Assembly: GCF_009914755.1 (NCBI RefSeq)
Contig: NC_060929.1
Length of the DNA stretch: 64,000 nucleotides
Strand: one strand, 5' to 3'
Origin: the human T2T-CHM13v2.0 reference genome, Homo sapiens
Shown piece after piece: positions 28,522 to 60,130 of this stretch. The number at the start of each line of letters is the position of its first letter. Positions within the stretch are counted from its first letter, which is position 1. A program made the translations under genes and the position numbers. Under the pieces are notes generated by a model. That model was not told the DNA's origin. It saw only the letters and a program-made list of their open reading frames with translations, and did not search any database.

Positions 28522-30595
28522 ATGGTGCCGCAGCAGGCTGCAGACACAAGGGAAGACTAACTAACCTCCTGAGCTGCCTCTGCCTGTCTAAATGAGCATC
28601 TGAGTCCAGTACCAAGGAGTTGAAGAAGGCTTTTTTGTGGGCAACGTCGTGGAGAACCTAGATGAGAAACCCTGAGCACCGGCTAGAGGTGAGTCCACTA
28701 TTTCTCCAAAGTCAGAAAAGCACACTTCTTCTAAATGCACAAAAGATCTGTTTGTAAATCAATGATTAAAGAAGATATGTAGAGAGATGCCCTAGTTCAC
28801 GTCTGCTGAGAGACCAGGTTGTTGAGAAGGACCCAGTGAAACTTCCTCAGGCTGCAGTAGAAATACTCGCTATATACATAATTATCTGGCTTCCCAGTGG
28901 AAGAAATAATAATGCCCTTTCTGGGGACATTATTTTCACATGCAGAATGTGCATGATTGTTAAGAGACATCAATTATCTACAAAGCTACTTACCCACTTG
29001 TGATATTTTTTCTTCTCAACATGCAGACTAAAGCCAGCCTGAACTGATTTTGAAAAATCTACTAAGCCTCATGTAAGGAATAGAGCATCACTACTGGTGA
29101 TGCTACCAACCTTGAAGAGGTTGGGGAAACAGGAAGATAGCAGTCCACCTTTTAAACATCATTAACAAGAAGTCTGTATGTAAGTGCTGGCATTAGGAGG
29201 AAGCCAAGAACAGTGTAGACAGTGGAGCTCAGAAAGCAGGCCACAGACCCTGATGATAGTTTTGTTGTAGTCTCAGCAATGCACCAAGATGTAACAGTCT
29301 CTCCTTGTCTGAGATAACACCCAGAGTTCTTTGTCCTACCTCCAAGAAGACACAAAGGTGAGGTTGGAGCGAAAGTTTAATAAGCGAAACAAGAAAGTTC
29401 TCTGTCAGCAGAGAGGCGGGCCTAAACAGGGTGCCCCGTGTGAGGCTGGGGTCCAGGGTTTTCAGGGGCTGGGAAGAGGAAGGAATGTGCTTAGTCCCTG
29501 GGCTGTCTGGAGAACATGTGACTCAGCTTGACCTGACATCAACCAGAAAGGTTTGCCCGGGACCTTGGGTTGGGAACAATCAGGGGCTGAAGTGATGATT
29601 CATAGAGCCCAGACTTACAGTCCAAAAAAGAAAGAAAAGTGCCCACCGGAACCCACTAGAGCCCACTGTGCCCCTGCCCACAAAAGGAGAAGAAACTTTT
29701 TCCTGGGAGCCTGCTGACTATACAAAGGACAAAGGCATTTCTATGCCAGGCCTTGTTCCCTTATCTGAGTGGGCCGGAGGTTTATGTACGTTTTTATTTC
29801 TATGCCAGGCCTTGTTCCCTTATCTGAGTGGGCCGGAGGTCTATGCAAGTTTTTATCCAAATGGGCCGGAGGTTTTTCTATCTGTGCAGCTGTGGGCCTG
29901 TCTCCAGGCACAACACCCTGTGCTAGTTCCTTATCAGTGCCTGCAGCTTGAATTTTTTTCCCAGGCTCCTTTTTATGTTATGTGGGGATGAGACACTGAC
30001 CCATGGGCTGGGGGCTCTCCAGGGACCCTTGCCTTGCTCTCTACCTAAGGCAAGCTAACTAACTCCTTTCAGTTTCAACACTGAAATAATTTGCTTTCTA
30101 AAATGAATCTCAGGGAAGACTTCTGGCCTATTTCACATGAATAAATGAATCTCAGAGATGTCTGGCCTATTTCACATGAATCTAGAGAGATCAGAGAGCG
30201 TAGAGAATTATAGACTTTGAAAACAGGGATTTTAAAGTTAAGGAGCTGCTCAAGTTGGAAGTGCAGGCCCTGGACAGAGGGATACTTTCTGGTCTTGAGC
30301 AAAAATCTCCAGTAGTTTCAGTCACACAACAACTTCCTGGAAATAATTATCACCCTCCTTAGAGGTCTGAGCCAGAAGAAAGAGAATCTACATTTCTTCT
30401 GAGTTCAGCAAGAAGATCATGAAGAAAATGAGCAGCTTTGATACTCCATTGCCAGATATGATCCTTCTGAGATATCACATATACTTAACTACTACAGCTT
30501 AGCATCCAGTGAATGCTAGGACACAGAAAGAATTTCTAACTACGATGTCTTTCAGCAATGCAAGATGCAGACCCTTTGGCCTTGACAATAGACCA
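28522..30595 (+). pseudogene. Relic protocadherin variable exon A (EC1-EC4), split by an LTR
   Basis: By-eye peptides EEGFFVGNVVENLD, AVEILAI, DINYLQSY, QPELILK, ATDPDD/SFNTEI (across LTR), IDFEN, LEVQALDRGILSG, NNFLEIIIT, NYYSLASSEC*DTERISNYDV in colinear cadherin order; stops and frameshifts. Confidence 0.85.
29263..30071 (-). mobile_element. ERV1 solo LTR (MER50-like)
   Basis: TG...CA termini, 4-bp TSD GTTT (29259-29262/30072-30075), internal ~45-bp tandem duplication. Confidence 0.8.
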
Positions 30596-31599
30596 AAAGG
30601 TATAATAAACTACAGAAAAGATTTTTCAAAATTAAGGGGCAAATTATGTTATGTGGAAGTGAAGAAAATTTTAAAATAAGGCTAGGCATCAGAAAAATGA
30701 TTTGATCAATTTAAATCTTAGAAACAAATACCATGGCACTAATTTAAAGAATACAAAAAGCCACAATACAAAAACACAATTAAGAGAAGGGGACAATCCC
30801 AGCACTTTGGGAGGCCGAGGTGGGTGAATCACTTGAGGTCAGGAGTTCGAGACCAGCCTGGCCAACATGGTGAAACCGCCATCTCTACTAAAAATACAAA
30901 AATTAGCCAGGTGCGGTGGCACAGGCCTGTAATCCCAGCTACTAGGGAGGCTAAGGCAGGAGAATTGCTTGAGCCCAGGAGGTAGAGGTTGCAGTGAGCT
31001 GAGATCGTGCCACTGCACTCTGGGCGACAGAGCGAGACTCCATCTCAAAAAACAAACAAACAAACAAAAACAAAGAGAAGGGGACTGTTCATTAAATTCA
31101 GAGATTCCATCACTGATTACACACACACAATATAAAATTTGGATTCCACCTTTTTCTTCTAAATTTTATTCTAAAATATCACTCTTCTAACTGTAAAACA
31201 AACATCTAGACTGTCAGATCCTTGAAGTCAGAAACCAGATACCATTAGTGTCTGAATAGCCACAGTTCAATACAATACATTGTAAATGGTGTGAGTTAAA
31301 TAAGTATTATGTAGATAAATAATTTGGCGATAGAACCCTCAAATGTCTTTAAACACAGTATTTCAAATTACTATATTTTTGCTTAGAGATCTGAAATGAT
31401 ACAAGTTGTACCCAAATATTGAACACTGAATTAAGCAAATAGGACAGGAAAAAAATTCTCCTGACTTAGATTTCTATTCCTCACTCCCACTATCCTTACT
31501 TGCCTCATACTATTTTTTTGAAGGTATTGAGTTAAATCTTTAATGAATGACACGTAAGAAGGTATGCTGACAACAAAGCTAACTTAGACTACCTCATGG

Positions 31600-57495: not shown

Positions 57496-57759
57496 CGTGG
57501 CTGGAGGGAAACAAAGCAATCCACTGACGCAGCAGTCCCCGCAGGCTTTTGAGACACACATTAGGAGAGGACTCTGCCCGCTGTCTGTCTCACAATCTGC
57601 TCGAAATATCTTGGTCAGGAATCTCAGGATGTCTAGTGACCCCGAGTGAGGTGCTGCCGTTTATTCCTGAGCATCTTTGGAAGCAGGAAGCAGGGAGCAA
57701 CGGTAGCGAGAGGTATTCGGATCTGAGTATCAGCAGGAAGAAGAAACAGAGGAAGAAGT

Positions 57760-60130
57760 CCCCCATAAGGAAGGCGTGAGGAGCGCAGGAAGCGCTGTTT
57801 CCCTGCCTGAGATCTTTATTCTACTAGGTCTTTATTCTACGTAGCCGATACGCTGTAAAATTCTGGAAGAGAAGGCTAGGGGTTTAAGGTTGGTAATCTC
57901 TCAGAAGATCTGCGTCTCGGTGACGGAAAGAACTAAGGGTAAGTGCTGAGAAGCCTCTCTTTACAGCCAGAGAACGAGCCAGAGCCGAGCTTGAGAATGA
58001 CGGGATAGATCTAGCAGTTATGCCCAAGGAAGACCCTCGGCCCTTTGAATTTGAAGGCACTGAAAATCGTATAAATGTTTTCATATAAACGTATGCATCT
58101 TTGATATAAATAACAAAATGGCTTTTAGCACAAATTTTGTTTTGGAAATTTTGAAAAACGTCTTAATAAGAGGAATGTTTACTCTTAAGTCTGCAGTAGA
58201 TTTTGAACACCGGCAGTAACTGTACAAATATATCAGATTAGTTTTAATAGCCATCTCCCCTTCCCCTACAAGTAAAGGAGAGTACTACAGCAGTATGTAC
58301 TCTGAATTGCTGCTATTGAAGAACCCCTGAGCCTGTGCAGCGTGGCACTCCTGTGGTCCCCATTACTCAGGAGGCTGAGGCAGGAGGATTGCTTGATGCC
58401 AGCTAGAGGCTGCAGTGCACTATGAGAACACCTGTGAATAGCCACTGCATTCCAGCCTGAGTAACATGGCCAGACCCCATCTCTTAAGAAAAGAAAAGAA
58501 ACCCTGAACCAGAGGAGCAGAGCTGCCACCACTTAGTGGTGGGGATGGGGCAGAACAGCTCAGGGCAAGACACAGGCCTTGGATGCCAATGCCAGCCGTC
58601 AGATATTGAGCAATGTGTAAGTGGGGTTAGCCTGCATGAGAACCTGCTCGCCACCTCCTCCTCTTCATTCTTTAGGTGATCCCCATTGACCTAGACAATA
58701 TCTTTAATATAGAGTTCTCCTGATTTTTCTACACAATTTTACAGGGCATACAGAATATATTTCCTGTCCAATAATGACAGAAATACTTGATTTTGAAGAG
58801 TAACAGTTATAGCTTGGAATAGAAGACTGGAGGCAGTTTGAGGGCCGACTTCAGAGTCCTGGTTGAAATGAAGGTTGAGAAGTATAATGCAGTCAGTGCA
58901 GGTGACTTTCAGCTGGGTATCTAGTCCTATCAGAGGTAAAAACTGTGGTTGCCCTAACCAAAACAATAGGACTAAGAGACCTTAAATGAAAGATGAAAGT
59001 TATTATAGAGAGAAATGATCATACTGGCAAACAATTCACCTCCAAGAATTATGATGTGACTCTTTGTCAGATACTCACAGATGGAATTCTAAACTGGTAG
59101 CAGACCCTGAAGGACAATGTCACCATCAGAACCACCAACAAGGACAAACTGTCCCTCTCCTGCATCACCCTGCATACCATCTGCATCCACAAAAATGCTC
59201 ATTCTTCAACAAGCCTCCTATTTCTTTTGGGTGACTGGGAACACTGCCCAGCACCTCCATCACATGCTTTAGCGCTTCCCACCCTAACTTAGGGTCCCAT
59301 ATGCCTCCTGTTTCTTCTTGACCAGTGACCTGCCACTGTGGGCACTGTCATTCTACATGTCAGTGAGTGCAGAGTGCTATGGTTACCATGCAGACTATCT
59401 TTGAGCTGACTCTGCAGGCCAGTGACCAGGGTTCAACTTGCTCAGTGTCATCCTGAACCTGCATGTGATGGTGGATGACCATTGCAAAAATGCAAGGACA
59501 CTATGCCAGGAGTTGCAGCCAAGTGGGGCCCACTTTGATGCTGCACCACTCACAATGCAACCCAGCTATCCCATCACCAAAGTGGACACCAGCTGGGGCA
59601 TAAAGGCTGACTGTCCTATCATGTGCTTCAGGCCAGCTAATGTGGCTCTTCAAACTAGGGATGTGCACGAGCTAGATGCGTGCCGTGTCACTGTGGGTAA
59701 CAGAGATGCAACCTGCCAAGGTTTGTTGGTCACCGTGGTCAATGGTGAATCATCACGCTGAAACATCACCTGGTTGCTGCTCATAGTTTGCAGGAGTTGC
59801 TACCAGACCTCAGCAATCGCCCAGCACCCAACAGCAGGCAGCAGACAGCACCCAACAGCTGGCGATGGCCGTTGCCTTGATCTCCATGCTGTTTCTCCTC
59901 AGTGTGACTCTGGCCATCTCTCTGAACCTGCAATGCCCCCTATAGCTCCATTGCCTGGGGCTGTTTTCAGCTGGATCTCTGGTCCAAGCCCGGATATGGA
60001 GTTGTCTCCAACTTAAAGAAAGGAAATTTGCCCTGTTCCTACAACGTATGTGTGGTTTTAGATATTTTTAAAATCTTAATTTCTTTAACTCAAGAAACAG
60101 CTTTGAACCAGGTATTCTCTGCAGTGCCAG
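57760..60130 (+). pseudogene. Near-full-length relic gamma-B-type protocadherin exon E
   Basis: ALFPCLRSLFY, PIRCKILEEKARG, VGNLSEDL, LRVSAEK, FHINVCIFDINN, EEQSCHHLV, FELTLQASDQGS, LSYHVLQAS, GNRDATCQGLLVTV, SLQELLPDLSNRP, VALISMLFLLSVTLAISL (TM), AWGCFQ, GNLPCSYNVCV. Confidence 0.93.

What the first reader, a model, noticed from the sequence alone, without database searches (positions are those of the whole stretch)
28522..60130. Fossil array: at least five tandem plus-strand protocadherin exons fill the beta-gamma gap
Seen: relic exons start at ~28.5, 37.2, 44.0, 51.9 and 57.8 kb, all in the same orientation as PCDHGA1 and spaced 6-9 kb apart. Types appear to be A-like/ambiguous, A, A, B, B. 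Inference: the ancestral array extended more than 30 kb 5' of PCDHGA1, so SLC25A2 and TAF7 are inserted within the array rather than between clusters, each antisense and immediately 5' of a CSE. Loss of these isoforms may be linked to the retrogene insertions, for example through constitutive antisense transcription or enhancer competition. Some 'relic' sequences are known in Pcdh clusters, so part of this may already be noted.
Basis: partly seen in the sequence, partly recalled or inferred. Interest (0 to 1): 0.85.

Follow-up and report, generated by a model that had tools for sequence, protein, structure and literature searches.

The report
Decayed protocadherin-gamma exons flanking TAF7 and SLC25A2
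The stretch just upstream of the first human protocadherin-gamma gene holds the decayed remains of four extra gamma-type exons plus one orphan gamma promoter motif sitting inside the TAF7 leader, so most of the claim holds but dead protocadherin exons are already a known kind of thing.

Summary
Partly confirmed. Profiles built from 30 intact PCDHGA, PCDHGB and PCDHB exons of the same genome recover plus-strand, colinear relics. They lie at 28.6-30.5 kb (R1, gamma-A-like), 37.2-38.7 kb (R2, gamma-A-like) and 57.8-60.1 kb (R5, gamma-B, nearly full length, nhmmer E 3e-153). A fragmentary relic lies at 45.1-45.7 kb (R3, subtype unresolved).

All are heavily frameshifted. The gaps inside R1 and R2 are dispersed-repeat insertions.

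The claimed exon at 51.9 kb is not recovered by any test. What exists there is a gamma-type promoter element (CSE, a CGCT-box CTCF site) at 51625-51647, inside the TAF7 5'UTR and antisense to TAF7. A second intact CSE lies at 57471-57493, about 279 bp before R5's start position, the same spacing as at PCDHGA1.

A CSE pattern fitted to intact gamma promoters matches 17 places in the 3.1-Gb genome at up to one mismatch. Sixteen are in this locus on the plus strand.

So the gamma-type array once extended at least 33 kb further 5', and both retrogenes lie inside it. A causal link between retrogene insertion and exon death is untested.

Relics are drawn in all three human clusters in the literature, so novelty is modest. 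The orphan CSE in the TAF7 leader is the most interesting item.

The parts
28615..29055 (+). Relic R1, 5' part (EC1 to EC2 equivalent), gamma-A-like
   Evidence: nhmmer all-family profile E 1.4e-13, model positions 169-650. The alignment opens on the EC1 signature. The N-terminal HMM test scored 7.9 with 0 of 1000 random segments as high.
29263..30073 (.). Dispersed repeat inserted into R1
   Evidence: Query positions 208-1018 of 29056-30155 match many genome copies at 70-75% identity.
30156..30548 (+). Relic R1, second part (EC3 equivalent)
   Evidence: nhmmer E 5.8e-7, model positions 919-1318, colinear with the first part.
33934..35348 (-). SLC25A2, an intronless gene lying between R1 and R2
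   Evidence: Hub annotation. Its paralogue on contig 13 is split into at least 5 exon pieces.
35872..35894 (+). Possible decayed CSE of R2 (CGCT box changed to CGCA)
   Evidence: 4 mismatches to the gamma CSE pattern, while shuffles give a mean of 0.33 such sites per window. It lies about 355 bp from R2's start position once the repeats at 35950-36263 and 36536-37169 are removed. Weak.
37221..37584 (+). Relic R2, 5' part (signal peptide and EC1), gamma-A-like
   Evidence: nhmmer GA profile E 3.2e-28. tblastn E 2e-7. Pfam Cadherin_2 E 5.8e-7, above its cutoff. Groups with the 12 GA exons, SH-aLRT 94.8.
37592..38478 (.). Dispersed repeat(s) inserted into R2
   Evidence: Query positions 8-166 and 448-894 of 37585-38478 match many genome copies at about 80% identity.
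38479..38738 (+). Relic R2, second part (EC1/EC2 boundary)
   Evidence: nhmmer E 1.8e-6 with the GA profile. tblastn E 2.2e-4.
45092..45452 (+). Relic R3, EC2 to EC3 fragment, subtype unresolved
   Evidence: tblastn E 1e-6, 41% identity over 51 aa, followed by a cadherin-linker-like stretch. Its tree position is unresolved.
45557..45685 (+). Relic R3, EC4/EC5 fragment
   Evidence: GA protein HMM i-E 0.016, colinear with the first fragment, implying an internal deletion of about 160 codons. Weak on its own.
49793..52087 (-). TAF7, an intronless gene whose 5'UTR (51348-52087) contains the orphan CSE
   Evidence: Hub annotation. Its paralogue on contig 23 is split into exons.
51625..51647 (+). 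Orphan gamma-B-like CSE (CGCT-box CTCF-site motif) with no detectable exon behind it
   Evidence: nhmmer GB promoter profile E 4.8e-4, and GB PWM score 21.2 against a next-best background of 10.8. It has 1 mismatch to a pattern fitted to intact gamma promoters, and that pattern has only 1 match outside the locus genome-wide.
57471..57493 (+). Intact CSE of relic R5
   Evidence: Exact match to the gamma CSE pattern. GB PWM 34.3 of a possible 42.5. About 279 bp before R5's start position, against 277 at PCDHGA1.
57772..58344 (+). Relic R5, 5' part (EC1 to EC2), gamma-B type
   Evidence: nhmmer GB profile E 1.5e-37. N-terminal test scored 6.2 with 0 of 1000 random segments as high.
58496..60144 (+). 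Relic R5, body through the transmembrane and variable cytoplasmic region; its 3' end is cut by an Alu
   Evidence: nhmmer GB profile E 3.2e-153, model positions 643-2403. tblastn E 1.3e-14. Sister to the 7 GB exons with support 100. The Alu begins at about 60150.
61713..61735 (+). CSE of the intact PCDHGA1 exon, used as reference
   Evidence: 2 mismatches to the pattern. The ATG is at 61990.

Best explanation
The 33 kb upstream of PCDHGA1 is the dead 5' end of the protocadherin-gamma variable-exon array. It holds four unprocessed pseudo-exons that decayed in place. R1 and R2 are gamma-A-like, R3 is unresolved, and R5 is gamma-B and nearly full length. All are on the plus strand, broken by many frameshifts and stops, and invaded by transposons.

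A fifth unit (R4) survives only as its promoter CSE. SLC25A2 and TAF7 are intronless, retrogene-like genes that landed inside this array in antisense orientation.

The coding relics do nothing. The two CSEs that stayed intact (51625 and 57471) are inferred to persist as forward-oriented CTCF sites. The first sits in the constitutively unmethylated CpG island of TAF7, which shields its CpGs from decay and lets CTCF bind. The second lies in a still CpG-rich relic promoter.

Shown here: homology, order, strand, subtype, disablements, repeat insertions and the genome-wide specificity of the CSE motif. Inferred: in-place decay rather than later transfer, CTCF occupancy, and any present-day function.
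For: Homology. Subfamily DNA profiles hit R1, R2 and R5 at E 1e-13 to 3e-153, all on the plus strand and colinear. Ten shuffles gave nothing better than E 0.59. tblastn with 30 intact exons gave 5 clusters, all on the plus strand. Pfam Cadherin_2 is above its cutoff in R2. The R3 alignment shows the EC2/EC3 linker.

Repeat insertions. The gaps inside R1 and R2 and upstream of R2 are dispersed repeats, and removing them restores colinearity.

Age and subtype. Identity to the nearest subfamily is 50-58%, against 74% among intact paralogues. Each relic falls outside the living crown group: R5 with the 7 GB exons at support 100, and R1 and R2 with the 12 GA exons at about 95. R5 carries about 46 frameshifting indels and 12 in-register stops, counts that depend on the alignment.

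CSEs. The pattern CTCTRRGYGYCGCTGYYSRYCMA at up to 1 mismatch gives 17 genome matches. Sixteen are in chr5 141845625-142001715 on the plus strand. R5's CSE matches at 0 mismatches and R4's at 1.

CpG content. Observed/expected CpG is 0.94 at R4 and 0.64 at the R5 promoter. It is 0.18 in the R5 body and 0-0.31 in R1 to R3.

Literature. The TAF7 CpG island is constitutively unmethylated and the SLC25A2 island constitutively methylated (PMC2776977, passages). The CSE is a forward CTCF site blocked by CGCT methylation (PMC6881428, passage).
Against: General Pfam models recover only R2 (above cutoff) and a sub-threshold Cadherin_C_2 hit in R5. None of the 23 R1 pieces or 7 R3 pieces hit a cadherin family.

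R1 rests on DNA-level profiles with sizeable bias corrections (11-13 bits). The subtype of R2 is not secured by the AU test (alternatives p 0.27-0.44), and R3 is unresolved.

Long branches (0.63-0.87) make 'sister to the whole subfamily' uncertain. R4 has no exon, so it could be a CTCF site that only resembles a CSE. The first CSE pattern was written after the two sites had been seen.

No data on CTCF binding, transcription or other species were available.
Confidence: 0.85

Rival explanations
1. The 51625 element is simply TAF7's own promoter-proximal CTCF site that happens to resemble a protocadherin CSE. On this view there never was a fifth variable-exon unit there.
For: No exon-body homology exists from 51.3 to 57.5 kb. 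The site lies inside a housekeeping CpG island that would conserve any functional motif. The CSE is itself a CTCF site (PMC6881428).
Against: The 23-nt gamma pattern, including flanks outside the CGCT core, has only 1 match outside the PCDHG locus in 3.1 Gb on both strands. The site is in the array's plus orientation. It lies 5.8 kb from the next CSE, a typical unit spacing. It scores as gamma-B-like (GB PWM 21.2, GB promoter profile E 4.8e-4).
Confidence: 0.12
2. The relics are fragments copied secondarily from living gamma exons into the gap, by segmental duplication or gene conversion, rather than original array members that died in place.
For: Tandem duplication and conversion are frequent in these clusters. 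This is general knowledge, and CNV is mentioned in the PMC4151104 abstract (listing).
Against: No relic is close to any living exon. The best identities are 50-58%, below the 70-84% seen among paralogues. Each falls outside the crown group of its subfamily. Repeat copies only 70-82% identical to their genomic relatives interrupt the relics. Order, strand and 4-9 kb spacing follow the array. R5 keeps its own CSE at the normal distance.
Confidence: 0.05
3. Some of the weaker calls (R1's second part, R3's second fragment, the 35872 CSE-like site) are chance or compositional matches, so the real fossil content is smaller: R1's 5' end, R2 and R5.
For: R1's second part scores 18.1 bits with a 13.1-bit bias. 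R3's second fragment has i-E 0.016. The 35872 site has 4 mismatches, and such sites are expected 0.33 times per window.
Against: Every weak piece is on the plus strand and colinear with a strong piece at the distance expected once repeats are removed. Shuffles never reached E<0.59.
Confidence: 0.2

Closest known systems
Relic (r) and pseudogene (psi) variable-region sequences of the human PCDH clusters (Wu et al. 2001, Genome Res; redrawn in PMC7766791 Fig. 2)
   Same: They are degenerate, unprocessed variable-exon remnants lying in array orientation within the clusters, the same kind of object.
   Different: I could not read Wu et al. 2001 (PMC311048 is not held), so I cannot say which of R1 to R5 are drawn there. 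The RefSeq T2T table given with the task annotates none. My recollection that HGNC lists a further gamma-B pseudogene symbol is unverified; a full-text search for PCDHGB9P found 0 papers.
PCDHGB8P, the gamma-B pseudogene inside the human gamma cluster (locus L041)
   Same: It is a gamma-B-type pseudo-exon on the plus strand, sister to the 7 living GB exons in the same tree.
   Different: It is much younger. It is 71% identical to GB exons, keeps a 569-aa open frame and has 0 in-register stops. R5 is 58% identical with about 12 stops and about 46 frameshifts.
Convergent sense/antisense promoters of PCDH-alpha variable exons (Canzio et al., bioRxiv 10.1101/360206)
   Same: The geometry matches: a transcript starting inside the former exon runs antisense through the CSE promoter. 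In the alpha cluster this demethylates the CSE and allows CTCF binding.
   Different: That paper states that beta and gamma exons lack the exonic CTCF site and antisense promoter (passage). Here the antisense transcript is the TAF7 mRNA, not a lncRNA. No binding data were tested.
Retrogenes that recruit a pre-existing CpG-island promoter
   Same: TAF7 and SLC25A2 are intronless with multi-exon paralogues elsewhere. The long TAF7 5'UTR and CpG island overlie a protocadherin promoter motif.
   Different: Retrogene status and promoter recruitment are inferred, not shown. The anole paper (PMC2764143, passage) says only that both genes entered the cluster in the mammalian lineage.

Membership tests
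Clustered protocadherin gamma variable exon (as pseudo-exon or relic) | Homology along a single exon of about 2.4 kb, from signal peptide through six EC repeats to the TM segment and variable cytoplasmic tail | tested here: met
   R5 covers GB model positions 78-2403. R1, R2 and R3 cover only parts: EC1-EC3, EC1-EC2, and EC2-EC3 plus EC4/5. No coverage at all for R4.
Clustered protocadherin gamma variable exon (as pseudo-exon or relic) | CSE with a CGCT box about 250-280 bp upstream of the start codon, in forward orientation | tested here: met
   Met for R5: exact pattern match at about 279 bp. The motif is met for R4, which has no exon behind it. Inconclusive for R2: a 4-mismatch site whose CGCT box is lost. 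Not found for R1 or R3.
Clustered protocadherin gamma variable exon (as pseudo-exon or relic) | Same strand and tandem spacing as the array | tested here: met
   All relic hits and CSEs are on the plus strand. Unit starts lie at about 28.5, 37.2, 51.9 (predicted) and 57.75 kb, and at 61.99 kb for PCDHGA1. R3's start is unknown.
Clustered protocadherin gamma variable exon (functional gene) | Open reading frame through the exon | tested here: not met
   Reading frames switch repeatedly. R5 has about 46 frameshifting indels and 12 in-register stops. R1 has about 23 frameshifts and 9 stops (alignment-dependent).
Clustered protocadherin gamma variable exon (functional gene) | 5' splice donor joining the exon to the gamma constant exons | tested here: inconclusive
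   R5's homology ends at about 60145, where an Alu begins, so the donor region could not be aligned. R1 to R3 lack their 3' ends.
Gamma-B subfamily (R5) | Phylogenetic grouping with PCDHGB exons | tested here: met
   SH-aLRT 100. GA, beta and alpha placements are rejected at AU p<=1.1e-5. GB profile E 3e-153, against 6e-10 for the best GA hit.
Gamma-A subfamily (R1, R2) | Phylogenetic grouping with PCDHGA exons | tested here: inconclusive
   Both group with the 12 GA exons (SH-aLRT 94.7 and 94.8). For R1, beta is rejected (p 0.019) but GB is not (p 0.08). For R2, no alternative is rejected.
Pfam Cadherin_2 (PF08266) / Cadherin (PF00028) | Score above the Pfam gathering cutoff | tested here: met
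   Cadherin_2 scores 29.7 bits against a cutoff of 23 for 37279-37461 only. PF00028 was hit by none of the 119 plus-strand pieces.
CTCF-binding site (forward CBS) | CTCF occupancy in vivo | not testable with these tools
   Only the motif is shown. ChIP data are not available here.

The most novel reading that the evidence does not exclude
TAF7 may have built its housekeeping promoter on the carcass of a gamma-B variable-exon unit. Its TSS lies about 185 bp inside the former exon, and its mRNA is transcribed antisense through the orphan CSE. By analogy with the antisense-lncRNA switch of PCDH-alpha promoters, this constitutive antisense transcription would keep the CGCT box unmethylated and the site permanently CTCF-bound. 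The result would be a fixed forward anchor, together with the R5 CSE, at the beta/gamma junction. Such an anchor could shape which beta and gamma promoters reach the downstream enhancers, and it could have silenced the neighbouring isoforms.
Probability: 0.2. Interest if true: 0.55.

Novelty: new member of a known kind. Interest (0 to 1): 0.3.

Why it matters
The finding redraws the 5' border of the gamma array. The so-called beta-gamma spacer is, in its proximal 33 kb, dead gamma array, and the two essential or tissue-specific non-protocadherin genes sit inside it.

It also flags two unannotated forward CSE/CTCF motifs between the clusters, at T2T chr5:141,845,625 and chr5:141,851,471. Anyone modelling CTCF/cohesin loop extrusion and promoter choice in the beta/gamma domain should count them. 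Both are directly testable with existing ChIP-seq and Hi-C data and by CRISPR deletion.

As evolutionary history it is unsurprising, because birth-and-death evolution of these exons is well known.

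Tried and rejected
(1) The exon at 51.9 kb is rejected. Evidence: no sub-window nhmmer hit at E<=20; relaxed tblastn gave only scattered hits on both strands with E>0.2 near 51.9 kb; the N-terminal HMM test was no better than random; and Pfam found nothing. A 'VIHY...KG' trace at 51951-51990 sits at the spacing predicted from the CSE but is not significant.

(2) R3's start at 44.0 kb and a CSE at 43744-43784 are rejected. 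The hits had E 0.39 and 0.81. The sequence has no CGCT box, and excising the Alus recovered nothing.

It has more than 7 mismatches to the 27-nt beta pattern. It also lies downstream of R1's start-codon position, about 28506.

(4) MAFFT --addfragments gave poorer alignments, so hmmalign was used instead.

It was replaced by FastTree and by quick IQ-TREE with AU tests.

(6) The minus-strand Pfam control (137 pieces listed) was not run.

(7) Literature. Wu 2001, Wu 2005 and Guo 2015 are not held. Searches for relics together with TAF7/SLC25A2, for PCDHGB9P, and for TAF7/CTCF/Pcdh found no description of these specific relics or of a CSE in TAF7. Supplements were not searched.

Full report
SETTING. 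The window is the human beta-gamma protocadherin junction on T2T chr5. SLC25A2 (33934-35348, minus strand) and TAF7 (49793-52087, minus strand) lie upstream of PCDHGA1, whose start codon is at 61990.

As probes I used the intact PCDHGA1 exon of the window. I added 29 further intact variable exons found in the same genome, giving 12 gamma-A, 7 gamma-B and 11 beta in all. Later I added 5 alpha exons, 5 C-type exons, 5 more beta exons and several pseudogenes.

ARE THE RELICS THERE? tblastn with the 30 exons at E<=0.01 gave five clusters outside PCDHGA1, all on the plus strand:
- 37351-37760: 18 HSPs, best E 2e-7, gamma-A
- 38516-38738: 5 HSPs
- 45092-45452: 9 HSPs, E 1e-6, gamma-A only
- 57768-58082: 1 HSP
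- 58930-60144: 21 HSPs, E 1e-14, gamma-B only

DNA profiles of each subfamily (nhmmer) were more sensitive:
- R1: 28615-29055 (E 1.4e-13) and 30156-30548 (E 5.8e-7)
- R2: 37221-37584 (E 3e-28) and 38479-38672 (E 2e-6)
- R5: 57772-58344 (E 1.5e-37) and 58496-60126 (E 3e-153), covering gamma-B model positions 78-2403

All six significant all-family hits are on the plus strand and colinear. The best minus-strand hit had E 0.15, and ten dinucleotide shuffles gave nothing better than E 0.59.

The R1 alignment opens on the recognisable EC1 N-terminal signature. R3 shows the EC2/EC3 linker.

General Pfam models are much weaker. Of 119 plus-strand ORF pieces, only R2 passes Cadherin_2 (29.7 bits against a cutoff of 23). 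R5 gives a sub-threshold Cadherin_C_2 hit. R1, R3 and the 51.6-54.3 kb interval give no cadherin hit.

No relic was detected from 19.3 kb upstream of the window to position 28 kb.

WHAT FAILED. The claimed exon at 51.9 kb is not there:
- No nhmmer hit in 51300-57500, even at E<=20.
- Relaxed tblastn gave only scattered hits on both strands.
- An N-terminal protein HMM was compared with 1000 random 400-bp segments. It scored 29.6 for R2, 7.9 for R1 and 6.2 for R5, with 0 of 1000 random segments as high in each case. It scored -4.4 for 51850-52249, with 876 of 1000 as high.

The same test scored -2.8 for 43900-44299 (435 of 1000 as high). Excising the two Alus did not recover a 5' end for R3.

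ANATOMY. The gaps inside the relics are transposon insertions:
- 29263-30073 in R1
- 37592-38478 in R2
- 35950-36263 and 36536-37169 upstream of R2
- an Alu that truncates R5 at about 60150

All relics are dead. Reading frames switch repeatedly. R5 has about 46 frameshifting indels and 12 in-register stops (alignment-dependent).

Identity to the nearest subfamily is low:
- R5 to gamma-B: 58%
- R2 to gamma-A: 54.5%
- R1 to gamma-A: 50.6%
- R3 to gamma-A: 49.7%
- for comparison, 74% among living paralogues and 71% for PCDHGB8P

SUBTYPES. R5 is gamma-B, with support 100 and alternatives rejected at AU p<=1e-5. R1 groups with the 12 gamma-A exons (94.7); a beta placement is rejected (p 0.019) but gamma-B is not (p 0.08). 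R2 groups with gamma-A (94.8), but no alternative is rejected. R3 is unresolved. Each relic sits outside the living crown group on a long branch (0.63-0.87), so precise placement is uncertain.

PROMOTERS. I derived the CSE from the intact promoters. In the window a gamma-B PWM scores 34.3 at 57471, 26.5 at PCDHGA1's own CSE (61713) and 21.2 at 51625. The next best score is 10.8.

A 23-nt pattern that fits intact gamma promoters was searched genome-wide at up to one mismatch. It matches 17 places in the 3.1-Gb genome. Sixteen are on the plus strand within chr5 141845625-142001715, with R5's CSE exact and the 51625 site at one mismatch. One match lies elsewhere. A slightly looser version, written after I had seen the two sites, gave 12 of 12 matches in the locus and 0 for the reversed control.

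R5's CSE lies about 279 bp before its start-codon position, against 277 at PCDHGA1. Its distance to the conserved EE codon is 395 bp, against 338-387 in six intact gamma-B genes.

The 51625 CSE lies inside the TAF7 5'UTR, antisense to TAF7. The TAF7 TSS (52087) is therefore about 185 bp inside the position where the lost exon would begin.

A weak CSE-like site at 35872 has 4 mismatches, its CGCT box is lost, and shuffles give 0.33 such sites per window. It lies 520 bp upstream of the SLC25A2 TSS. Once repeats are removed it is about 355 bp from R2's start. That is plausible but not established.

CONTEXT.
- TAF7 and SLC25A2 are single open frames here, with multi-exon paralogues on contigs 23 and 13. 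This is consistent with retrogenes.
- The anole paper states that both genes entered the cluster in the mammalian lineage (PMC2764143, passage).
- The TAF7 CpG island is constitutively unmethylated and the SLC25A2 island constitutively methylated (PMC2776977, passages).
- CpG observed/expected is 0.94 around the 51625 CSE and 0.64 at the R5 promoter. It is 0.18 in the R5 body and 0-0.31 in R1 to R3.
- The CSE is a forward CTCF site whose CGCT methylation blocks CTCF (PMC6881428, passage).

These points support the inference that the two intact CSEs persist because they sit in hypomethylated DNA, because they are used as CTCF sites, or both. No binding data could be examined.

COMPARISON WITH WHAT IS KNOWN. 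'Relic (r) or pseudogene' variable sequences are drawn in all three human clusters (PMC7766791, Fig. 2 legend), following Wu et al. 2001, which I could not read. The RefSeq table supplied with the task lists none in this window.

Full-text searches found no description of these particular relics or of a CSE within TAF7. Supplements and unheld papers may contain them.

The convergent geometry at TAF7 resembles the PCDH-alpha sense/antisense promoter pair. However, gamma exons are stated to lack an exonic antisense promoter (bioRxiv 10.1101/360206, passage).

VERDICT. The inference that the retrogenes lie within a former gamma-type array is supported. The causal story is untested. Novelty is modest, and the orphan CSEs are the part most worth a follow-up.

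Noticed in passing
window 55930-56133 (minus strand): A weak cadherin-linker-like match to gamma-B residues 460-519 on the minus strand. It scores 30.0 bits, against a maximum of 23.9 in 200 random 1.2-kb segments, at 27% identity. It is not colinear with the neighbouring weak hits at 56252-56395. It could be an inverted scrap of the missing R4 body, or noise.
   Followed up: partly
window 13974-14035 and 12504-12583 (minus strand): Two very weak beta-profile nhmmer hits (E 0.088 and 0.12) that are colinear on the minus strand. The first overlaps a stretch masked as a repeat. Probably noise.
   Followed up: no
window 57629-57748 and 51616-51815: Two RefSeq 'enhancer' features in the task's table coincide with relic promoters. 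One is the 120 bp just before R5's start-codon position. The other begins 9 bp before the orphan CSE in the TAF7 leader.
   Followed up: partly
window 51951-51990 (plus strand): A hydrophobic stretch followed by 'VIHY...KG' in one frame, at the distance from the 51625 CSE where a gamma exon's signal peptide and EC1 start would fall. It is not significant in the HMM test.
   Followed up: yes
locus L041 (PCDHGB8P, chr5 141951200-141955200): This pseudogene branches as sister to all 7 living human gamma-B exons and keeps a 569-aa open frame. It served as a useful 'young pseudogene' yardstick.
   Followed up: partly
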